A stretch of 64,000 bases of DNA, from contig JACPNG010000015.1 in the NCBI GenBank assembly GCA_016185605.1, positions 7,103-71,102 of the forward strand. Reading direction: 5' to 3'. Below, in pieces: positions 18,403 through 24,957 of the stretch. The notes beneath the pieces were generated by a model. The model did not search any database and was not told the origin of the DNA. It saw only the letters and a list, made by a program, of their open reading frames with translations. The first letter of the stretch is position 1; every line of letters begins with the position of its first letter. The translations under genes were made by a program, and so were the position numbers. The DNA is from Candidatus Woesearchaeota archaeon. Lineage in GTDB: Archaea > Nanobdellota > Nanobdellia > SCGC-AAA011-G17 > JACPNG01.

Positions 18403-20172
18403 ATGAAAGCTACTGAGTTAAAGCAGAAATATCTAAATTTCTTCAAATCCAAAGGCCATAGCATAGTCCCTTCTGCATCATTAATTCCAGAGAATGACCC
18501 GACAATATTGTTTACAACAGCTGGAATGCATCCATTGGTTCCATATTTATTAGGACAAAAGCATCCATTGGGAAAAAGAATAGTAAATGTCCAGAAATGC
18601 ATCAGGACAGGGGACATTGATGAAGTGGGGGACAGTTTACATCTAACATTTTTTGAGATGCTTGGAAACTGGAGTTTAGGGGATTATTTCAAGGATGAGG
18701 CTATTGAATGGAGCTTCGAATTTTTAACAGATAAAAAATATCTTAATTTGGATGCAGATAGATTGGCAATATCTGTCTTCAAGGGGGATAAAGACGCTAA
18801 AAAAGATGAATTTTCATATAAAAAATGGCTGTCTTTGGGAATTCCAAAAGAGAGAATAGCATTTCTTCCAAAAAATGACAATTGGTGGGGTCCTGCCGGA
18901 TTAACTGGACCTTGCGGTCCTGATACAGAGATGTTCTACTGGGCATCTAATGAGAAAGCCCCTAAAAAATTCAATCCAAAAGATGTTAAATGGTTTGAAA
19001 TCTGGAATGATGTTTTCATGGAGTATAATAAAACCAAAGAAGGAAAATATGAATTGCTAAAGCAAAAGAATGTTGACACTGGAATGGGTGTTGAAAGAAC
19101 TTCTGCTGTATTGCAGAATAAAAAATCAGTATATGATATAGAAATATTCTCTCCAATAATTGAAAAAATAAAAGAAATTTCGGATATAAAAAAAATAGAT
19201 GAAAATAAGCTTAAGTCAATTAGGATAATAGCTGATCATCTAAGGGCAGCCACATTTATACTGGGAGACGAAAAAAGGATAACCCCCAGCAATGTTGAGC
19301 GGGGATATGTACTAAGAAGATTGATAAGAAAATCCATAAGACATGGAAAATTAATTGGAATAGAAAATAATTTCACATTTGAGGTAGCCAAGTCAATAGT
19401 AAACATCTACAAGGATGAATATAATGAGATTGAAAAATATAAAAAATTCATCTTCGAGGAATTAGACAAGGAAGAGGAGAAATTTAGAAATACCCTGGAT
19501 AAGGGAACAAAAAGATTTAATGAGATAATAAAATCATTAAAAACAAAAACTATTCCAGGAATAGACGCATTTCACCTGTATGACACCTATGGATTTCCAA
19601 TTGAATTGACAAAGGAATTAGCCATTGAGAAAGGATTTAAAATAGATGAAAATAAGTTCAATCTTGAGTTTAAAAAACACCAGGAAAAATCCAGATTGAG
19701 TACAGAAAAGAAATTCACTTCAGGATTGGCTGACCATGGTGCAAATACTACAAGATTGCATACAGCAACTCATTTATTGCACCAAGCATTAAGAAATATT
19801 CTGGGAAATCATGTCCAGCAAAAAGGCTCTAATATAACTCATGAGCGTTTAAGATTTGACTTTTCCCATGATAATAAGATGACAGATGAGCAGATTAAGA
19901 AAGTTGAAAATATAGTAAATGAGCAGATTAAGAAATCATTGGAGGTTAAAAGAGATGAAATGTCGCCTTCTGAAGCCAAATCAAAGGGTGCTTTGGGATT
20001 TTTTGAATCTAAGTATGGAAACAAAGTAAGCGTCTATTCTGTTGGAAATTTTTCAAAGGAAATCTGCACAGGGCCCCACGTTAATAACACAAAAGATATC
20101 GGAAAATTTAAGATTACAAAAGAAGAGGCTGTTGCTGCTGGAATAAGAAGAATAAGAGCTATTGTAGAATAA
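18403..20172 (+). CDS. alaS: alanyl-tRNA synthetase, bacterial-type, compact (catalytic + tRNA-recognition + editing core; no C-Ala domain)
   Basis: 589 aa. PENDPTILFTTAGMHPLVPYL (TNAGM-like), FFEMLGNWSLGDYFK, WWGPAGLTGPCGPDTEMFY, editing-domain HTATHLLHQAL and C-terminal CTGPHV. Confidence 0.8.
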   Translation: MKATELKQKYLNFFKSKGHSIVPSASLIPENDPTILFTTAGMHPLVPYLLGQKHPLGKRIVNVQKCIRTGDIDEVGDSLHLTFFEMLGNWSLGDYFKDEAIEWSFEFLTDKKYLNLDADRLAISVFKGDKDAKKDEFSYKKWLSLGIPKERIAFLPKNDNWWGPAGLTGPCGPDTEMFYWASNEKAPKKFNPKDVKWFEIWNDVFMEYNKTKEGKYELLKQKNVDTGMGVERTSAVLQNKKSVYDIEIFSPIIEKIKEISDIKKIDENKLKSIRIIADHLRAATFILGDEKRITPSNVERGYVLRRLIRKSIRHGKLIGIENNFTFEVAKSIVNIYKDEYNEIEKYKKFIFEELDKEEEKFRNTLDKGTKRFNEIIKSLKTKTIPGIDAFHLYDTYGFPIELTKELAIEKGFKIDENKFNLEFKKHQEKSRLSTEKKFTSGLADHGANTTRLHTATHLLHQALRNILGNHVQQKGSNITHERLRFDFSHDNKMTDEQIKKVENIVNEQIKKSLEVKRDEMSPSEAKSKGALGFFESKYGNKVSVYSVGNFSKEICTGPHVNNTKDIGKFKITKEEAVAAGIRRIRAIVE

Positions 20173-20458: not shown

Positions 20459-20880
20459 TTCAAAATTACTTTATCTCCCAAGTTAATATTATTTTCTATT
20501 GCAAAATTATTATTTACCTCCAACACATATTTGGCTTTATCTTTTGGTTTATAGCTTATACATTCATCATCGCATGGAACAGCGTGTTTTATGTCCACAA
20601 TCTTTAAATTCTTAGAGATAAAAATCATATCCAATGGAATTAATGTATTCTTCATCCAGAAACTATGATAATCCTCATCTTCAAAAACAAACAGCATCCC
20701 GGAATTTTTATCTAGGCTTTCTCTGAACATTAATCCTTGTGTTCTTTCTGAGTCAGAATCTGCAATTTCAATATTAACTTTTATCTCATTATCTTCATTA
20801 TTAATTATCAGATAATCCTTATTAGCACAACCATTCATAAGTATTAATGGAACTAAAGCTATCAATAATAACATTTTCAT
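20455..20880 (-). CDS. DUF192 (COG1430-like) secreted protein
   Basis: 141 aa. ERTQGLMFRESL...MLFVFEDE...FWMKNTLIPLDMIF matches the DUF192 pattern. Stop overlaps the leuS start region (operon). Confidence 0.55.
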   Translation of the reverse strand: MKMLLLIALVPLILMNGCANKDYLIINNEDNEIKVNIEIADSDSERTQGLMFRESLDKNSGMLFVFEDEDYHSFWMKNTLIPLDMIFISKNLKIVDIKHAVPCDDECISYKPKDKAKYVLEVNNNFAIENNINLGDKVILK

Positions 20881-23800
20881 TCTAAAAATATTGCTGGTTT
20901 TCCAGGCTTGGCTTTTTTTGATTTATTTTCTGGATCATATTTATTCTTGTCAGAAACTGAATAAACAATAACATCCTTGTTTACTTTAATGCTCAATTCT
21001 TTAGAATTATAGTTATTAACTTCATTAGGCAGTGAATAAACATAAACCTTGCTGAATTCTTTTCCTTGTTTTTCTTTCATCACATTAATTACATTTGTTA
21101 TATCTGAAACCAAATTATTAAATGATTTTTCAGCCTGTTCAAATTTTATATCTATCTTAGATTCATCATATTCTGGCCATTTTTCCAGGCTCAGGAATTT
21201 TTTATTTCCAATTTTTTCCCATAACTCTTCTGTAATATGAGGACAAAATGGATGTATTAACTTAAGGAATTTCTCCAAATCTTTCTTGCTTATTTCATTT
21301 TCCAAGGAATCAAATAAATCCCTAATCTTAATAATTGCCAAGTTATACTTGAATTCTTCTATATCTTGAGTAACATCTTTTATTGTTTTGTTTAATTTAC
21401 TTTCAACCTTTCTGGATGTTTTTCCCATCTTCACATTTGAAACATAATCTATTAGCCTTCTGACAAATCTTAGGCTTCCATCTATGCCTTTAGAACTCCA
21501 TTCCATATCTTTGTCAGGAGCAGCCCCTGATATCAAGAATAATCTTGCTGTGTCTATCCCATATTCTTTTGATACAGCTTCTGGCAAGACAACATTGCCT
21601 CTGGATTTTGACATTACAAATCCGTCTTCCCCGTGCAACATTCCTTGGTTGAATAACTTGATGAAAGGCTCATCAATATTTACATATCCCATATTCCTAA
21701 GGGCTTTAGTAAAAAATCTTGCATAAATTAAATGCATACAGGCATGCTCTGCCCCCCCAATATACTGGTCAACAGGCATCCAATAGTTTGTTTTCATAGT
21801 ATCAAATGGTTTCTTATTATTTTTATTATCGCAATATCTTAAGAAGTACCAAGAAGAATCAAAGAAAGTGTCCATTGTATCTGTTTCTCTTTTAGCATTC
21901 TTTTTGCATCTAGGGCATTTTACATTTAAAAATTTTTTATTTGTTGTTAATGGGTTTCCTTTTCCAAATTTAACCTTGTCTGGAAGTTTTACAGGAAGAT
22001 CTTTTTCTTGAACTGGAATAATTCCGCAAGAATCACAATAAATTATTGGAATCGGAGTCCCCCAATATCTTTGTCTTGAGATTAGCCAGTCCCTTAATTT
22101 GTAATTAACAGTTAACTTTCCTATTTTTTTATTTTCTAATTCTTTGGTTATCTTTATCTTGGCTTCTTCTGAATTTAGTCCATTGAACTTTTCAGAATTA
22201 GTTAGAATACCTTCATCAACATATGCCTCTTGTGTACAATTCAACATTCTCAGAGCATGTTTATGAGTAGTTGGTGTCAAAAATTTCTCAAGCTCCTTTA
22301 AGTTAAGCCATTTTATTTCATGGATCTCCTTTTCAGCTTCTGAAATATTTTTTTGCTTGCTATTTTGCAATTCAAAATAAAGAACGTGTGCATGAGCAAA
22401 TCTATTTATCTTTTTAGGCACATGATAAAATCTTCCATGCACTCTGCCAAAATCTTTAATTAATTTAGGATTTAAATATCCAGTTTCTTCTTCAATTTCT
22501 ATCTTGGCTGCTTCTTCTGGAGTTTGGTTTTTTTCTATTCCACCAGTAATGAAAGTTCCCCAAACAACTTTTTTCCATTTTAATCCTATATATTTTTCTT
22601 CAGACCAGTGTTTTACAATAGCAATAATTGCATCTCTATGATCAAATGGTAAACCATCAACAATCTTACCTGGTTCTGTATCTTGACTATAAACTGGCTC
22701 TATTACATTCACTATTTTAAGATTGTACTTCTTTGCAAACTCAAAATCTCTTTGGTCATGAGCTGGAACTGCCATTACCATCCCAGAGCCATATTCAGCA
22801 ATGACAAAATTTCCTGCATAAACTGGAATTTTTTGATTTGTTAATGGATGTAATGCATAACTCCCTGTAAACACCCCTTCTTTATCCAACTTTTCTATAT
22901 CTTCTTTTTTTGTTGATTTTATTTTTCTTAAGAAATTATCAACCTCTTTCTTCTGTTCTTTTGTTACAATCTCATGAAGCCTTGGATGCTGGGCGGAAAT
23001 AACCATAAAAGTTACCCCAAATAAAGTATCTGGACGAGTAGTAAATATTTTCCATTTTCTAAATAATAAATTTAAGACTTCCTCTTCCTTTTCTCCATTA
23101 TAATGTGTCTTATTTCCCATTGCAGTGATAATTTGTGCTTCTAATTTATTAGCTATTTCCATGGGTTGATTAATAGGAACAATATGATCATTTTTATCTA
23201 CAAGAATAAATATTTGTCTAACATTCTCCTTAATTTTATTAAAATCAAACTTCCAATCACAATAATTTGATAGGGCAGGTCTAGGTTTGTTATCAATGAA
23301 AGCTTTGCCGGAGATAATTCTTTCTTTTGTTGGAAGTGGAGGAGCAACCATTATTAATTTGCCTATCTTTATTCTCCCAGATGAGAGTAATTTCATCATC
23401 AAAATATTTCCAAGAGAATGTCCTATTACTATGCTGTTCTCATTAAAATTATAATTATTTAAAACAAACTCTGATTGTTCTTTATACTGCGGATTATTTG
23501 TATTTGGCAAATCAGGAGAAAATGATACTCTTCCACCCTTATTTTCAATTTCTTTTCTTAACCACAACCAAAAAGCATCTTTAGAACTATCTCCATATGC
23601 ATGAAGAAAAACAAACTCTTTATCTTTTACATCTTCAAATATTTCAAATTCAATCTCAGTTCCATAGCTTTTTCCAATCCAGTTCTCCTGCATTATTTTT
23701 ATTCTTTCAGACCATTGTAATTTTTCTATATCTTTCAAAAGCTCATCTGCATATTTTGTTGTCTTGATGAACCATTGTTCTAATTGTTTTGTCTCAACAT

Positions 23801-24347
23801 CTGTATCTTTATGACGCCAGCATTTTCCGTTATGGACTTGCTCATTTGCCAATACAGTATCGCATTTAGAGCACCAGTTAACACTTGCTTTTGATTTATA
23901 CACTAATCCATTCTCCAAGAATTTCAAAAAGAAATACTGGTTCCATTTATAGTATTCTGGAGTATGAGTCATTAATAACCTATCCCAGTCATAACTTAAT
24001 CCAAGCTCTTTTTGCTGCCTTATAAAATTTTTAATGGAATTCTCTGTGAATTTCTTTGGATGCTCTTTGGCTAGAATAGCTGCATTCTCTGCTGGAAGTC
24101 CAAATGAATCATATCCCATTGGATATAATACATTAAATCCCATCATCCTTTTAAATCTTGAATAAATATCTCCAATAGTATAGTTAAATGCATGACCCAT
24201 ATGCAGTCCAGAGCCAGAAGGATATGGAAACATCTCAAGAACATAGAATTTTTTCTTATTATTCTCTTTAACTTTGAATACTTTTTTCTGTTCCCATCTC
24301 TTCTGCCATTTCTTTTCTATTTTGCTGAAATCAACCATTATATTCAT
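20877..24347 (-). CDS. leuS: leucyl-tRNA synthetase (archaeal type) with two extra hydrolase-like domains inserted around the CP1 editing domain
   Basis: 1156 aa. HMGH (HIGH) and VMSKS (KMSKS) motifs, NWIGKSYG, TTRPDT and AVPAHDQRDFEFA editing motifs. About 195 extra aa with a GHSLG nucleophile elbow between WIGKS and TTRPDT (approx. nt 23058..23642). About 145 extra aa with a Nudix-box-like GGIEKNQTPEEAAKIEIEEETG after the editing core (approx. nt 22233..22670). Confidence 0.85.
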   Translation of the reverse strand: MNIMVDFSKIEKKWQKRWEQKKVFKVKENNKKKFYVLEMFPYPSGSGLHMGHAFNYTIGDIYSRFKRMMGFNVLYPMGYDSFGLPAENAAILAKEHPKKFTENSIKNFIRQQKELGLSYDWDRLLMTHTPEYYKWNQYFFLKFLENGLVYKSKASVNWCSKCDTVLANEQVHNGKCWRHKDTDVETKQLEQWFIKTTKYADELLKDIEKLQWSERIKIMQENWIGKSYGTEIEFEIFEDVKDKEFVFLHAYGDSSKDAFWLWLRKEIENKGGRVSFSPDLPNTNNPQYKEQSEFVLNNYNFNENSIVIGHSLGNILMMKLLSSGRIKIGKLIMVAPPLPTKERIISGKAFIDNKPRPALSNYCDWKFDFNKIKENVRQIFILVDKNDHIVPINQPMEIANKLEAQIITAMGNKTHYNGEKEEEVLNLLFRKWKIFTTRPDTLFGVTFMVISAQHPRLHEIVTKEQKKEVDNFLRKIKSTKKEDIEKLDKEGVFTGSYALHPLTNQKIPVYAGNFVIAEYGSGMVMAVPAHDQRDFEFAKKYNLKIVNVIEPVYSQDTEPGKIVDGLPFDHRDAIIAIVKHWSEEKYIGLKWKKVVWGTFITGGIEKNQTPEEAAKIEIEEETGYLNPKLIKDFGRVHGRFYHVPKKINRFAHAHVLYFELQNSKQKNISEAEKEIHEIKWLNLKELEKFLTPTTHKHALRMLNCTQEAYVDEGILTNSEKFNGLNSEEAKIKITKELENKKIGKLTVNYKLRDWLISRQRYWGTPIPIIYCDSCGIIPVQEKDLPVKLPDKVKFGKGNPLTTNKKFLNVKCPRCKKNAKRETDTMDTFFDSSWYFLRYCDNKNNKKPFDTMKTNYWMPVDQYIGGAEHACMHLIYARFFTKALRNMGYVNIDEPFIKLFNQGMLHGEDGFVMSKSRGNVVLPEAVSKEYGIDTARLFLISGAAPDKDMEWSSKGIDGSLRFVRRLIDYVSNVKMGKTSRKVESKLNKTIKDVTQDIEEFKYNLAIIKIRDLFDSLENEISKKDLEKFLKLIHPFCPHITEELWEKIGNKKFLSLEKWPEYDESKIDIKFEQAEKSFNNLVSDITNVINVMKEKQGKEFSKVYVYSLPNEVNNYNSKELSIKVNKDVIVYSVSDKNKYDPENKSKKAKPGKPAIFLE

Positions 24348-24392: not shown

Positions 24393-24414
24393 AATACAGC
24401 TTTATTTTGATATT

Positions 24415-24501
24415 GGGCCTGTAACTCAGTTTGGATAGAGTGTCAGCCTTCTAAACAATGAAGTGAGCTGAAAGTCCGGGGTTCAAATCCTCGCAGGCCC
24501 G
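24415..24501 (+). tRNA. tRNA-Arg (anticodon UCU) with a short (about 12-nt) intron adjacent to the anticodon loop
   Basis: Acceptor GGGCCTG/CAGGCCC. D-arm ACTC-AGTTTGGATA-GAGT. Anticodon stem TCAGC/GCTGA with loop CTTCTAA plus inserted acaatgaagtga (CTTC/GAAG pairing suggests a relaxed BHB). T-arm CGGGG-TTCAAAT-CCTCG. No encoded CCA. Confidence 0.75.
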
Positions 24502-24550
24502 CTCTTAGAATACAAAAGATATAAAAATCAGAAGAATTCTTTCAATCCAT

Positions 24551-24657
24551 GCGCAGGTGCCCAAGCGGTCTAAGGGGACCGATCATCTTATGATGAGTCC
24601 AAGCTGCAAAATATTGTAGACCCCGGTTTATCGCAGGTTCGAATCCTGCCCTGCGCT
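24551..24657 (+). tRNA. tRNA gene with about 35-nt insertion, isotype unresolved (class-II-like D-arm)
   Basis: Perfect 7-bp acceptor GCGCAGG/CCTGCGC. T-arm GCAGG-TTCGAAT-CCTGC. D-arm CCC-AAGCGGTCTAAG-GGG (Leu/Ser-like). The region between the D- and T-arms is about 60 nt and contains the hairpin TCATC-TTAT-GATGA. The anticodon could not be fixed by eye. Confidence 0.6.
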
Positions 24658-24675
24658 TTATAATTTATAGAAATA

Positions 24676-24957
24676 TTATGCGACTGCTTGATGAGTATGA
24701 TAGGTTCTATAATGCTTTTTCACTAATTTTTGAATATAATCATAAGCTATTTTATATCCTACTTCTGTAGATGTGCCACTCTTTACTAAACGATCACATT
24801 CACTAGAAATTCTTAACCTAAGTAAATGATCTAAACTCTTTGGCAAGTCTTTTTTTAATTTATTAAAAAAGAAATCAGAATTTATTCCATCTTTTGCACT
24901 ACAAAAACTCCAATAAATAAAATTTAGTACTTCATCTCTGCTTGCTATTTCTGACAT
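24676..24957 (-). CDS. hypothetical protein (93 aa)
   Basis: ORF only. Confidence 0.3.
   Translation of the reverse strand: MSEIASRDEVLNFIYWSFCSAKDGINSDFFFNKLKKDLPKSLDHLLRLRISSECDRLVKSGTSTEVGYKIAYDYIQKLVKKHYRTYHTHQAVA

What the first reader, a model, noticed from the sequence alone, without database searches (positions are those of the whole stretch)
20877..24347. LeuRS carrying two inserted hydrolase-like domains (alpha/beta serine hydrolase and Nudix-like) flanking the CP1 editing domain
The 1156-aa ORF has all LeuRS hallmarks (HMGH, NWIGKS, TTRPDT, AVPAHDQRDFEFA, VMSKS). Between NWIGKSYG and TTRPDT, where bacterial and archaeal LeuRS have only about 20 residues, it carries about 195 aa containing a GHSLG nucleophile elbow and a downstream D-H pair, which resembles YdeN/RBBP9-type serine hydrolases. 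After the editing-core motif it carries about 145 aa whose centre, GGIEKNQTPEEAAKIEIEEETG, aligns to the MutT Nudix box (GGKLEMGETPEQAVVRELQEEVG). In that alignment Arg is replaced by Ile and the first Glu by Gln, so the domain may be catalytically degenerate or repurposed. Extra hydrolase folds at the site that clears mischarged tRNA suggest an alternative or auxiliary proofreading or nucleotide-hydrolysing activity. I am not aware of this architecture in described LeuRS enzymes.
Basis: partly seen in the sequence, partly recalled or inferred. Interest (0 to 1): 0.8.

Follow-up and report, generated by a model that had tools for sequence, protein, structure and literature searches.

The report
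LeuRS with nested exchangeable hydrolase cassettes
This gene is a real leucyl-tRNA synthetase of a tiny DPANN archaeon whose proofreading (CP1) domain has two complete extra enzymes, a serine hydrolase and a Nudix hydrolase, spliced in-frame into its surface loops; these belong to a set of swappable enzyme cassettes that I could not find described anywhere.

Summary
ORF 20877-24347(-) is an intact 1156-aa bacterial-type LeuRS (TIGR00396, 893 bits) with HMGH, VMSKS and the canonical CP1 editing motifs.

Two complete single-domain enzymes are nested in CP1 surface loops:
- Residues 237-432: a YdeN/RBBP9-type Ser hydrolase (profile vs 1uxo E=5e-31; TM 0.8; triad S311/D387/H415 near-invariant in 66 homologues).
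- Residues 552-705: a small Nudix. Its box variant (Q608, I616) also occurs in three free-standing relatives examined, so it looks like a subfamily trait, not decay.

It is not a misassembly. Of the 120 closest DPANN homologues, 85 carry inserts at the same two sites, in many combinations. Cassette kinds include HAD, Ham1, unknown domains and an IS200-like transposase. Two alleles with 98.9% identical protein cores carry different cassettes with codon-exact boundaries.

Both cassettes have free-standing counterparts (56-65% identity). Relatives sit next to leuS genes, once in a cluster with a YbaK-like trans-editing gene.

However, the hydrolase cassette also nests in ValRS, AlaRS, SecA, UvrB, EngA and TsaD. 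An accessory LeuRS-linked hydrolase role is therefore plausible but unproven. I found no published description.

The parts
20877..24347 (-). leuS ORF, 1156 aa plus stop codon: bacterial-type LeuRS core carrying two nested cassettes
   Evidence: ORF listing. TIGR00396 leuS_bact 893 bits against a cut-off of 548. An identical protein is in NCBI nr, labelled Candidatus Woesearchaeota.
23640..24347 (-). Residues 1-236: N-terminal catalytic half with HMGH (49-52; window 24192-24203), the Zn-binding region, and the first CP1 strand ending in NWIGKS (222-227; window 23667-23684) plus YGTEIEFEI
   Evidence: Pfam tRNA-synt_1 13-216. Aligns to Tt LeuRS 8-236. Motif coordinates.
23052..23639 (-). Insert 1 (residues 237-432): YdeN/RBBP9-type alpha/beta serine hydrolase cassette. 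Oxyanion His249; nucleophile Ser311 (window 23415-23417) in GHSLG; Asp387 (23187-23189); His415 (23103-23105)
   Evidence: PF06821 32.7 bits. Profile vs PDB: 1uxo E=4.7e-31, RBBP9 about 1e-23. AF2 pLDDT 94.6. Foldseek TM 0.80-0.86 to 1uxo, 2qs9 and 7oex. Triad conserved in 62-65 of 66 inserts whose median pairwise identity is 38%. Free-standing P0185 is 65% identical over 184 aa.
22695..23051 (-). Residues 433-551: CP1 editing core with TTRPDT (436-441; window 23025-23042) and AVPAHDQRDFEFA (526-538; window 22734-22772)
   Evidence: PF13603 best stretch 431-556. Aligns to Tt LeuRS 244-364. This core is about 100 aa (97-113; exactly 100 in most) in all 120 homologues.
22233..22694 (-). Insert 2 (residues 552-705): small Nudix hydrolase cassette. 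Nudix box 602-624 (window 22476-22544) reads GGIEKNQTPEEAAKIEIEEETGY, with Q608 and I616 in place of the consensus E and R; E617, E620 and E621 are retained
   Evidence: PF00293 53.6 bits. AF2 pLDDT 95.8. Foldseek top hits are 2azw and the Ap4A hydrolases 3i7u and 4mpo. Box statistics. Free-standing P0123 is 56% identical over 154 aa.
20880..22232 (-). Residues 706-1156: end of CP1, second catalytic half with VMSKS (911-915; window 21603-21617), anticodon-binding domain (979-1097; window 21057-21413), and a C-terminal domain that archaeal-type LeuRS models cover better than the bacterial one. There is no leucine-specific domain
   Evidence: Aligns to Tt LeuRS 374-599 with the Tt 577-634 region missing. 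Anticodon_1 979-1097. PRK12300 covers residues up to 1139, whereas leuS_bact stops at 1071.

Best explanation
This is the genuine leucyl-tRNA synthetase of a Woesearchaeota-type DPANN archaeon. Its synthetic site and its canonical CP1 editing site are intact.

Two complete, independently folding enzyme genes have been captured in-frame in two surface loops of CP1. One is a YdeN/RBBP9-type serine hydrolase, placed four residues before the Thr-rich editing motif. The other is a small Nudix pyrophosphohydrolase, placed 17 residues after the conserved editing Asp.

They are members of a pool of exchangeable cassettes that these lineages gain, lose and swap at the same loops. The pool includes Ser hydrolase, Nudix, HAD, Ham1-like, an IS200-like transposase domain and unidentified domains.

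Shown: the anatomy, the family assignments, conservation of catalytic residues, cassette turnover, the existence of free-standing counterparts, and their adjacency to leuS genes.

Inferred: both modules remain active enzymes tethered to LeuRS as accessory hydrolases that add to CP1 editing rather than replace it. The Ser hydrolase most likely cleaves alpha-aminoacyl ester, amide or thioester bonds of hydrophobic amino acids, by analogy with RBBP9. Candidate substrates are mischarged aminoacyl-tRNA or adenylate-derived by-products. The Nudix most likely cleaves an adenine dinucleoside polyphosphate or NTP-type by-product such as Ap4A.
For: LeuRS identity and intact motifs.

Insert identities: Ser hydrolase; Nudix.

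Catalytic residues under constraint. Ser311 is conserved in 65 of 66 inserts, Asp387 in 62 (the other 4 have Glu), His415 in 65 and His249 in 65, although the inserts are only 19-86% identical to each other. The three Nudix Glu residues are conserved in 32 of 32, and 30 of 32 have a full canonical box.

Not an artefact. 85 of the 120 closest homologues, from many independent assemblies, carry inserts at the same two sites. So do 21 of 71 parsed GTDB species representatives.

Cassette exchange. P0002 (hydrolase) and P0004 (HAD) sit in syntenic loci. Their genes are 98.4% identical at DNA level outside a block with codon-exact borders. Parsimony needs at least 22 state changes at site 1 and 35 at site 2 among 120 sequences.

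Whole-gene capture. Free-standing P0185 (193 aa) is 65% identical to insert 1, and P0123 (163 aa) is 56% identical to insert 2, each end to end.

Link to LeuRS:
- A free-standing Nudix of the cassette subfamily lies 10-24 nt downstream of leuS in four assemblies.
- P0185 abuts an archaeal-type leuS.
- L093 has the cluster Ser_hydrolase / Ser_hydrolase / YbaK-like tRNA_edit / Ham1-like / archaeal-type LeuRS, with overlapping gene ends.
- Class Ia aaRS are 53 of the 77 hosted or fused representatives of the hydrolase family.

Chemistry. RBBP9 forms acyl-enzyme adducts with Leu/Ile, Met, Phe, Tyr and Trp, needs a free alpha-amine, and is stated to cleave amide, ester or thioester bonds (PMC8866121). 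It is also cited as a valacyclovir (valyl ester) hydrolase. The structural neighbours of the Nudix include several Ap4A/Ap6A hydrolases.
Against: No activity has been measured, and no substrate can be assigned from sequence.

The same hydrolase family is nested in SecA, TsaD/Kae1, EngA, UvrB, AlaRS, ValRS and a family-2 glycosyltransferase. It is also fused to peptidase, methyltransferase, glyoxalase, Ham1 and Nudix domains. Its role therefore cannot be strictly LeuRS-specific.

Cassettes occur at alternative positions: the hydrolase at site 2 or at a third site, and the Nudix elsewhere in CP1. This argues against a precise geometric coupling to the editing pocket.

35 of the 120 close homologues have no insert at all, so the inserts are dispensable.

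The RBBP9 alpha-amine ligand Glu108 has no clearly conserved counterpart in the inserts (alignment).

The Nudix could not be assigned to a subfamily by sequence; the best PDB profile E-value is only 1e-7.

I could not obtain model coordinates, so the distance from Ser311 to the CP1 pocket is unknown.
Confidence: 0.6

Rival explanations
1. Dedicated second proofreading site. The serine hydrolase sits next to the CP1 pocket and deacylates mischarged tRNA-Leu that CP1 handles poorly. The Nudix hydrolyses non-cognate aminoacyl-adenylate or a related nucleotide. Together they widen the editing spectrum of LeuRS.
For: Insert 1 rejoins the chain only 4 residues before TTRPDT. RBBP9 acts on alpha-aminoacyl bonds of Leu/Ile/Met-type residues, including esters. 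Free-standing homologues are clustered with a YbaK-like tRNA_edit gene and leuS. The aaRS hosts seen so far (LeuRS, ValRS, AlaRS) all belong to families that edit (the editing property is from established knowledge).
Against: CP1 editing motifs are fully conserved in all 120 homologues, whether or not they carry inserts. The cassette also works from site 2, from a third site, and from inside non-aaRS hosts such as SecA, UvrB, EngA and TsaD. Occupancy of the two sites is statistically independent. No Nudix enzyme is known to me that cleaves aminoacyl-adenylates.
Confidence: 0.22
2. Functionally unrelated house-cleaning enzymes hitch-hiking in a permissive host. In streamlined CPR/DPANN genomes, small hydrolase genes (Ser hydrolase, Nudix, Ham1, HAD) become nested in tolerant loops of essential, constitutively expressed proteins. 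They then spread between alleles by homologous recombination. LeuRS CP1 is simply the most tolerant and most often recombined host, and the inserts do nothing for leucylation.
For: Many unrelated hosts and many fusion partners. Cassette types and positions are interchangeable. Turnover is very fast, including an exact swap between alleles with 98.9% identical protein cores. An IS200-like Y1 transposase domain occupies the same site 1 in P0264. GC3 is lower in the inserts (0.19-0.20) than in the rest of the gene (0.24-0.31).
Against: Class Ia aaRS make up about two thirds of hosted copies. The A1-type Nudix was seen only free-standing or inside LeuRS. Free-standing copies of both cassettes lie immediately next to leuS of two different types, once together with a tRNA-editing-family gene. 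Simple hitch-hiking does not predict this.
Confidence: 0.3
3. The inserted folds are catalytically dead in this protein and act as structural, tRNA-binding or regulatory modules. This is the 'degenerate or repurposed' reading.
For: In this protein the Nudix box lacks the consensus Glu at position 7 and Arg at position 15. Non-enzymatic Nudix domains exist (PMC5389931).
Against: The three metal-binding Glu residues are retained, and the same box variant occurs in free-standing proteins of CPR bacteria, which implies a functional subfamily. The hydrolase triad and oxyanion His are intact here and nearly invariant across the family.
Confidence: 0.08
4. Assembly chimera or mis-joined genes.
For: The source is a metagenome-assembled genome. 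The exact protein was not found in the contig index.
Against: The reading frame is continuous. Insertion points are identical in dozens of independent assemblies from different studies. Close relatives share the same gene order around the locus. An identical protein is deposited in NCBI on a 97-kb contig.
Confidence: 0.01

Closest known systems
Bacterial-type LeuRS with a CP1 editing domain (T. thermophilus 1h3n/2byt, E. coli 4aq7), and the bacterial-like LeuRS with an archaeal C-terminal domain known from Halobacteria and Nanoarchaeum (Fang et al. 2014, cited in PMC9437257)
   Same: HIGH and KMSKS motifs, CP1 in the bacterial position, the Thr-rich motif and conserved Asp of the editing site, and the anticodon-binding domain. 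Archaeal-type LeuRS models cover the C-terminus better than the bacterial model does.
   Different: Two foreign enzyme domains of about 191 and 146 aa are nested inside CP1. There is no leucine-specific domain. No solved or described LeuRS that I could find has CP1 acting as a host.
YdeN (B. subtilis, 1uxo) and RBBP9 (human, 2qs9/7oex) serine hydrolases, Pfam PF06821
   Same: Full-length fold match (TM 0.80-0.86), GHSxG nucleophile elbow and Ser-Asp-His triad. Free-standing prokaryotic relatives are 65% identical to the insert.
   Different: Here the domain is an internal insert in another enzyme. The RBBP9 alpha-amine ligand Glu108 is not evidently conserved. The substrate is unknown.
Small single-domain Nudix hydrolases (E. 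faecalis 2azw; Ap4A hydrolases 3i7u, 4mpo, 1kt9; Ap6A hydrolase 1vc8)
   Same: Nudix fold, the helix carrying the three Glu residues, and a size of about 150 aa.
   Different: The box reads GX5QX6KIEUXEEXGU instead of GX5EX7REUXEEXGU. Sequence identity to any solved Nudix is 20% or less. It is nested in CP1 or encoded next to leuS.
Recruited or free-standing aminoacyl-tRNA editing modules: YbaK/ProXp (PF04073), AlaX, and the DTD-like N-terminal editing domain of archaeal ThrRS (from established knowledge)
   Same: The concept of an unrelated hydrolase fold attached to, or encoded beside, an aaRS to clear mis-acylated products. A YbaK-like gene sits in the same cluster as free-standing cassette homologues and leuS.
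   Different: Different folds. No deacylase activity has been shown for the YdeN/RBBP9 family. The cassettes here supplement an intact cis-editing domain.
In-frame selfish or mobile insertions in essential genes: inteins, and Rickettsia palindromic elements (from established knowledge)
   Same: Patchy distribution, recurrent use of the same permissive sites in conserved proteins, and exchange between close alleles.
   Different: No Hint, intein or homing-endonuclease domain was detected and no terminal repeats. The inserts are full enzymes with conserved catalytic residues and are presumably retained in the mature protein.
IleRS with an inserted GNAT domain (NCBIfam NF040702, ileS_w_GNAT)
   Same: A class Ia aaRS carrying an extra enzyme domain, already recognised as an annotation exception (model listed).
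   Different: Different synthetase and different domain. I did not examine its insertion site.

Membership tests
Leucyl-tRNA synthetase, bacterial type (TIGR00396) | Whole-protein score above the curated equivalog cut-off | tested here: met
   893.2 bits against a cut-off of 548.4
Leucyl-tRNA synthetase, bacterial type (TIGR00396) | Class I signature motifs HIGH and KMSKS | tested here: met
   HMGH 49-52 and VMSKS 911-915
Leucyl-tRNA synthetase, bacterial type (TIGR00396) | CP1 editing site: Thr-rich motif (E. coli T247-T252) and conserved Asp (E. coli D342/D345) | tested here: met
   TTRPDT 436-441 and AHDQRD with D531/D534. The residue equivalence to E. coli is from established knowledge.
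Leucyl-tRNA synthetase, bacterial type (TIGR00396) | Bacterial C-terminal tRNA-binding domain and leucine-specific domain | tested here: not met
   The leuS_bact match ends at profile position 784 of 843 (residue 1071). The archaeal-type model PRK12300 covers residues up to 1139. The Tt 577-634 leucine-specific region has no counterpart. The protein is therefore a hybrid with an archaeal-like tail, as known for some archaeal bacterial-type LeuRS.
Leucyl-tRNA synthetase, bacterial type (TIGR00396) | Leucylation of tRNA-Leu and editing activity | not testable with these tools
   Requires biochemistry
YdeN/RBBP9 serine hydrolase (Pfam PF06821) | Profile match above the gathering threshold | tested here: met
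   28.3 bits in the whole protein and 32.7 bits for the insert alone, against a cut-off of 22. The family profile against 1uxo gives E=4.7e-31.
YdeN/RBBP9 serine hydrolase (Pfam PF06821) | Compact alpha/beta-hydrolase fold of about 190 aa that superposes on 1uxo and 2qs9 | tested here: met
   pLDDT 94.6. TM 0.80-0.86 and rmsd 2.2-2.4 A; the next families score about TM 0.6.
YdeN/RBBP9 serine hydrolase (Pfam PF06821) | Ser-Asp-His catalytic triad with a GxSxG elbow | tested here: met
   S311 in GHSLG, D387 and H415, conserved in 62-65 of 66 inserts
YdeN/RBBP9 serine hydrolase (Pfam PF06821) | RBBP9-type recognition of a free alpha-amine (Glu108) and a hydrophobic cage | tested here: inconclusive
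   In the profile alignment, Glu108 falls in a variable, gapped lid region with no conserved acidic residue. No structural superposition with coordinates was possible.
Nudix hydrolase (Pfam PF00293) | Profile match above the gathering threshold, and Nudix fold | tested here: met
   53.6 bits against 21.1. pLDDT 95.8; TM 0.77/0.82 to 2azw.
Nudix hydrolase (Pfam PF00293) | Canonical Nudix box GX5EX7REUXEEXGU | tested here: not met
   Q608 replaces E and I616 replaces R. E617, E620, E621 and both Gly residues are kept. The same variant occurs in free-standing P0123, P0129 and P0134. The insert is therefore a member of the fold/clan with a variant box.
Diadenosine polyphosphate (ApnA) hydrolase subfamily of Nudix | Conserved aromatic (Tyr) residue in the X-loop downstream of the box; closest structures are ApnA hydrolases | tested here: inconclusive
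   A conserved [FY][FY] pair (F640, Y641) lies 16-17 residues after the box. 3i7u, 4mpo, 1vc8 and 1kt9 are among the top fold matches, but so are MutT-type NTPases. The motif definition is from PMC5389931. Structural equivalence was not verified.
Aminoacyl-tRNA trans-editing factors (YbaK/ProXp PF04073, AlaX, DTD) | Homology to a known editing fold | tested here: not met
   No such Pfam match in the ORF. The only link is by gene neighbourhood in L093.
Inteins / homing elements | Hint or intein splicing domain or a LAGLIDADG/HNH endonuclease within the insert; terminal repeats | tested here: not met
   No such Pfam hit at E<=1. No meaningful repeats at the insert borders.

The most novel reading that the evidence does not exclude
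CPR bacteria and DPANN archaea possess a previously unrecognised system of exchangeable in-frame 'enzyme cassettes'. Whole small hydrolase genes (YdeN-type Ser hydrolase, Nudix, Ham1, HAD and unknown X domains) move between free-standing, operonic and nested states, and LeuRS CP1 is the main docking hub.

On LeuRS they would form a modular, strain-variable quality-control toolkit working alongside CP1. This would resemble a cis-tethered version of trans-editing factors such as the YbaK-like gene found in the same cluster. An IS200-like Y1 transposase domain found at the same docking site would hint at how the cassettes are mobilised.
Probability: 0.3. Interest if true: 0.88.

Novelty: new variant of a known kind. 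Interest (0 to 1): 0.72.

Why it matters
LeuRS and its CP1 domain are among the best-studied proofreading machines and a validated drug target, and CP1 has been treated purely as an inserted module. This protein shows CP1 acting as a host for other enzymes.

The pattern is recurrent, strain-variable and recently exchanged, in the two radiations of ultra-small symbionts (DPANN and CPR).

If the cassettes act on LeuRS-linked substrates, this would be a new, modular way of building translational quality control. It would also give a testable physiological context for the orphan YdeN/RBBP9 hydrolase family.

If they do not, it is still a striking case of whole-gene nesting and cassette swapping inside essential proteins. 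That matters for how streamlined genomes evolve, for marker-gene phylogenies that use LeuRS, and for automated annotation, which currently labels these proteins 'class I tRNA ligase family protein' and even labels free Nudix genes 'leuS'.

Tried and rejected
Misassembly or chimera. Rejected because identical insertion points recur in many independent assemblies and the locus is syntenic with close relatives.

Intein or homing element. No Hint or endonuclease domain in the ORF and no terminal repeats or hairpins at cassette borders.

tRNA-Leu next to leuS. The two upstream tRNAs contain introns, but ARAGORN calls them Arg(UCU) and Val(CAC), not Leu.

Locating the source contig by exact protein. 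Not on record.

Assigning the Nudix to a functional subfamily by PDB profile. Only generic matches at about 1e-7. The fold search is enriched in ApnA hydrolases but is not decisive.

Linking the HAD cassette of P0004 to the HAD gene beside a free-standing Nudix in L005. Only 25% identity, a superfamily-level relation.

Identifying the 'X' cassettes at site 2. No Pfam match and no PDB sequence match.

Testing whether the RBBP9 substrate ligands are conserved. The alignment in the lid region is too variable to say.

Testing whether the Nudix in standalone Nudix-hydrolase fusions is the LeuRS type. It is not, scoring only 17-19 bits.

Literature. Seven searches and several papers read found no description of hydrolase domains nested in LeuRS CP1. 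The library holds only open-access papers, so absence is not proof.

Full report
**1. Checking the observation**

The ORF at 20877..24347 on the minus strand encodes 1156 aa.

NCBIfam places the protein in bacterial-type LeuRS (TIGR00396, 893 bits against a cut-off of 548). Archaeal-type LeuRS models cover the C-terminal tail better than the bacterial model does.

Pfam finds the class I catalytic domain, the LeuRS editing domain PF13603 split into three stretches, and the anticodon-binding domain. It also finds NUDIX (53.6 bits, cut-off 21.1) and Ser_hydrolase PF06821 (28.3 bits, cut-off 22), both above their curated cut-offs.

Aligned to T. thermophilus LeuRS:
- query 9-236 matches Tt 8-236;
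- query 433-551 matches Tt 244-364;
- query 706-925 matches Tt 374-599.

So residues 237-432 replace a 7-residue turn and residues 552-705 replace a 9-residue loop. The leucine-specific domain of Tt LeuRS is absent. The inserts lie inside CP1, on either side of its catalytic core, rather than beside the domain.

The window is archaeal. Two intron-containing tRNA genes lie just upstream. An identical protein is deposited in NCBI as Candidatus Woesearchaeota.

**2. What the two inserts are**

*Insert 1.* A profile built from 28 homologous inserts matches B. subtilis YdeN (1uxo, E=4.7e-31) and human RBBP9 (about 1e-23) over their full length. An AlphaFold model of the window's insert has pLDDT 94.6. 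It superposes on 1uxo, 2qs9 and 7oex at TM 0.80-0.86 and rmsd 2.2-2.4 A. The next families score only about TM 0.6.

Across 66 inserts that are 19-86% identical to one another (median 38%), the catalytic residues are nearly invariant:

| Residue | Conserved in |
|---|---|
| His249 (oxyanion) | 65 of 66 |
| Ser311 (nucleophile) | 65 of 66 |
| Asp387 | 62 of 66 (the other 4 have Glu) |
| His415 | 65 of 66 |

*Insert 2.* The model has pLDDT 95.8 and a Nudix fold. The closest solved structures are an E. faecalis MutT/nudix protein and several Ap4A/Ap6A hydrolases, followed by MutT-type NTPases. Sequence-profile matches to solved Nudix proteins are only generic, at about 1e-7.

In 32 LeuRS-embedded Nudix inserts, both Gly residues and the three Glu residues of the box are invariant, and 30 have the full canonical box. 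Only this protein (Q608, I616) and P0016 deviate.

That variant is not decay. Free-standing proteins P0123, P0129 and P0134 are 46-56% identical to the window's insert. They also have Gln at box position 7 and lack Arg at position 15. P0129 and P0134 have a basic residue at position 14, where the window protein has Lys615.

**3. A recurrent, modular and fast-changing architecture**

The 120 closest homologues are all labelled DPANN archaea where a source gives a name, except one labelled Patescibacteria. They share two codon-precise insertion sites. The baseline is 16 aa at site 1 and 64-70 aa at site 2, and the core between them is about 100 aa (97-113; exactly 100 in most).

States among the 120:

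| Site 1 | Site 2 | Count |
|---|---|---|
| none | none | 35 |
| hydrolase | none | 39 |
| none | Nudix | 16 |
| hydrolase | Nudix | 16 |
| hydrolase | domain with no Pfam match ('X') | 9 |
| various singletons (below) | | 5 |

The singletons are a HAD domain at site 1, the hydrolase at site 2, X alone at site 2, a short insert at site 1, and the hydrolase with a short 108-aa segment at site 2.

Of 71 parsed GTDB species representatives, all labelled Woese-, Pace- or Nanoarchaeota, 21 carry at least one insert.

On a tree of the LeuRS core the states are scattered. Parsimony needs at least 22 changes at site 1 and 35 at site 2. Site 2 is almost as scattered as shuffled labels. Occupancy of the two sites is independent.

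The window's own small clade contains four architectures:
- P0017: no inserts;
- the window protein: hydrolase plus Nudix;
- P0002: a different hydrolase subtype only;
- P0004: HAD only.

P0002 and P0004 lie in loci syntenic with the window. Their genes differ at 38 nucleotide positions outside site 1 (98.4% identity). Identity stops right after ...CATGGGACTGAAAT and resumes at AATATTCACAACAAGG, with unrelated cassettes in between.

This rules out misassembly and shows recent cassette replacement. No repeats or hairpins mark the borders. GC3 is somewhat lower in the inserts.

**4. Wider cassette repertoire and other hosts**

Searching 1.84 billion cluster representatives with the hydrolase profile gave 400 hits at E<=1e-30. 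Among the best 150, 73 are free-standing proteins of about 180-195 aa, 53 are inside class Ia aaRS, and 24 are in other contexts.

Inside LeuRS the search revealed further arrangements:
- a Ham1/ITPase-like domain at site 1 with the hydrolase at site 2 (P0291);
- an IS200-like Y1 transposase domain with an HUH-like motif at site 1 (P0264);
- the hydrolase at a third site, just after the PIP..H/YC motif, in LeuRS with bacterial-type C-termini that I take to be CPR-like (P0203, P0225, P0264, P0275);
- a Nudix elsewhere in CP1 (P0275);
- tandem hydrolases at site 1 (P0183), tandem Nudix domains (P0222), and hydrolase plus HAD (P0223).

The hydrolase is also nested in ValRS, AlaRS, SecA, TsaD/Kae1, EngA/Der, UvrB and a family-2 glycosyltransferase. 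It is found fused to peptidase, methyltransferase, glyoxalase, Ham1 or Nudix domains.

The cassette is therefore promiscuous, with LeuRS as its preferred host. The LeuRS-type Nudix, by contrast, was seen only free-standing or inside LeuRS.

**5. Free-standing counterparts and gene neighbourhood**

Each window cassette corresponds end to end to a complete small gene:
- P0185 (193 aa, starts with Met) is 65% identical over 184 aa to insert 1.
- P0123 (163 aa) is 56% identical over 154 aa to insert 2.

Their neighbourhoods point to LeuRS:
- A free-standing Nudix of the cassette subfamily is 59% identical to an embedded cassette. It lies 10-24 nt downstream of leuS on the same strand in four assemblies of one archaeal clade.
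- P0185 abuts an archaeal-type leuS, with its end at 1025 and the leuS start at 1026.
- In L093, five genes with overlapping ends encode Ser_hydrolase, Ser_hydrolase, a YbaK-like aminoacyl-tRNA editing domain (PF04073, 87.7 bits), a Ham1-like protein, and an archaeal-type LeuRS (850 bits).

Not every free-standing copy is next to leuS.

**6. How it most likely works**

*Shown.* The LeuRS core is complete. Its editing motifs are conserved in all 120 homologues, with or without inserts. The cassettes therefore add to CP1 and do not replace it. Both cassettes are predicted to fold autonomously with high confidence. Their catalytic residues are under purifying selection.

*Inferred, Ser hydrolase.* RBBP9 is the only biochemically characterised member of the family. 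In cells it forms acyl-enzyme adducts with single Leu/Ile, Met, Phe, Tyr or Trp residues and needs a free alpha-amine. [quoted passage not shown] It is also cited as a valacyclovir (valyl ester of a nucleoside analogue) hydrolase. An aminoacyl ester on A76 of tRNA, or homocysteine thiolactone, belongs to the same chemical class. From established knowledge, LeuRS mis-activates Ile, Met, norvaline and homocysteine. Insert 1 rejoins the chain four residues before the Thr-rich editing motif.

*Inferred, Nudix.* Its fold neighbours include ApnA hydrolases. It has an aromatic pair where ApnA hydrolases carry their specificity Tyr. From established knowledge, Ap4A is a side product of aminoacyl-adenylate reacting with ATP.

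*My best reading (confidence about 0.6).* This is a normal LeuRS carrying two tethered, active accessory hydrolases drawn from a LeuRS-associated toolkit. The specific claim that the Ser hydrolase deacylates mischarged tRNA-Leu has a probability of about 0.2.

*Main rival (about 0.3).* The cassettes are house-cleaning enzymes merely nested in a tolerant, essential host. The many other hosts and the positional flexibility support this. The repeated leuS adjacency and the YbaK-like neighbour oppose it.

**7. Comparison with what is known, and novelty**

The parts are known families: LeuRS, YdeN/RBBP9 and Nudix. The arrangement is not.

I found no paper describing hydrolase domains nested in LeuRS CP1. 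[quoted passage not shown]

The sequences themselves are in public databases with automatic labels, so this is not a new sequence. It is an undescribed variant of a known enzyme, and probably the most visible example of a broader, undescribed cassette phenomenon in CPR/DPANN.

**Limits of this analysis**
- No activity data.
- No model coordinates, so the geometry relative to the editing pocket is unknown.
- Trees are simple neighbour-joining trees on identities.
- The 120 homologues were selected by similarity to an insert-bearing query.
- The literature search covers only open-access papers.

Noticed in passing
window 24415-24502 (+) and 24551-24657 (+): Two intron-containing tRNA genes lie directly upstream of leuS. 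One is tRNA-Arg(UCU) with a 12-nt intron. ARAGORN calls the other Val(CAC) with a 35-nt intron at a non-canonical position. Rfam at gathering threshold found only the first, and default ARAGORN found neither.
   Followed up: partly
window 18403-20172 (+): A short AlaRS-like gene of 589 aa (tRNA-synt_2c plus tRNA_SAD in the syntenic loci) lies convergent with the leuS-DUF192-Cys-rich gene trio. It is much shorter than typical AlaRS. Elsewhere in the data an AlaRS (P0244) carries the same hydrolase cassette.
   Followed up: no
L003:5030-5719 (-), versus window about 24400-24680: In the close relative L003, a 229-aa ORF with a faint LAGLIDADG_3 hit sits between the small upstream ORF and leuS. 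That is the region where the window has its intron-containing tRNAs.
   Followed up: no
P0264 residues about 240-395 (LeuRS site 1): An IS200-like Y1 transposase domain (PF01797, 52.8 bits) with an HUH-like motif (EHVHLL) is inserted in-frame at exactly the same CP1 site 1 as the hydrolase cassettes. The hydrolase sits at a third site in the same protein. This may be a clue to how cassettes are mobilised.
   Followed up: partly
Site 2 of P0006, P0074, P0079, P0034, P0120, P0018, P0033, P0047, P0118, P0038: Insert cassettes of about 100-115 aa at site 2 have no Pfam match and no PDB sequence match. They share invariant Trp, Phe and Tyr positions. Their fold and function are unknown.
   Followed up: partly
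P0167 (L007:2246-3082) and P0173: Standalone proteins of 268-278 aa consist of a degenerate mini-CP1 (VPAHIEEDY / VPAHNGEDY, no TTRPDT) with a canonical Nudix nested at site 2. The one whose context was examined (P0167, L007) is not next to leuS. They look like excised CP1-plus-cassette modules.
   Followed up: partly
L093:5001-9882 (+): A five-gene cluster with overlapping ends: Ser_hydrolase, Ser_hydrolase, YbaK-like tRNA_edit (PF04073), Ham1-like, and archaeal-type LeuRS. This LeuRS is 883 aa and lacks about 100 C-terminal profile positions.
   Followed up: yes
L005:5400-6486 (+): In a Staskawiczbacteria (CPR) contig, a HAD_2 gene is followed 4 nt later by the free-standing Nudix most like the window's insert. 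The HAD is only 25% identical to the HAD cassette of P0004.
   Followed up: yes
P0134 and P0135 (L004:6001-6474): NCBI labels these free-standing 157-aa Nudix proteins of Parcubacteria as 'leuS'. This is presumably annotation transfer from Nudix-bearing LeuRS. Insert-bearing LeuRS are in turn downgraded to 'class I tRNA ligase family protein'.
   Followed up: partly
window 23052-23639 and 22233-22694 versus the rest of the gene: Third-position GC is lower in both inserts (0.199 and 0.188) than in the CP1 core (0.235), the N-terminal part (0.309) and the C-terminal part (0.262). This is compatible with a different or more recent origin of the cassettes.
   Followed up: no
L001:12466-12894 and L002:8849-9277: A HIT-family (PF01230/DcpS_C) gene lies about 3.5 kb from leuS and near alaS in the closest relatives. 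HIT/Hint enzymes are known to hydrolyse aminoacyl-adenylates (from established knowledge). No counterpart was seen in the window ORFs of at least 90 aa between 12000 and 18500.
   Followed up: no
P0273 residues about 650-827: A 1260-aa ValRS carries the same hydrolase cassette in its catalytic domain, between the DTWFSS...WP motif and the second half of the Rossmann fold. This site is outside the ValRS editing domain.
   Followed up: partly
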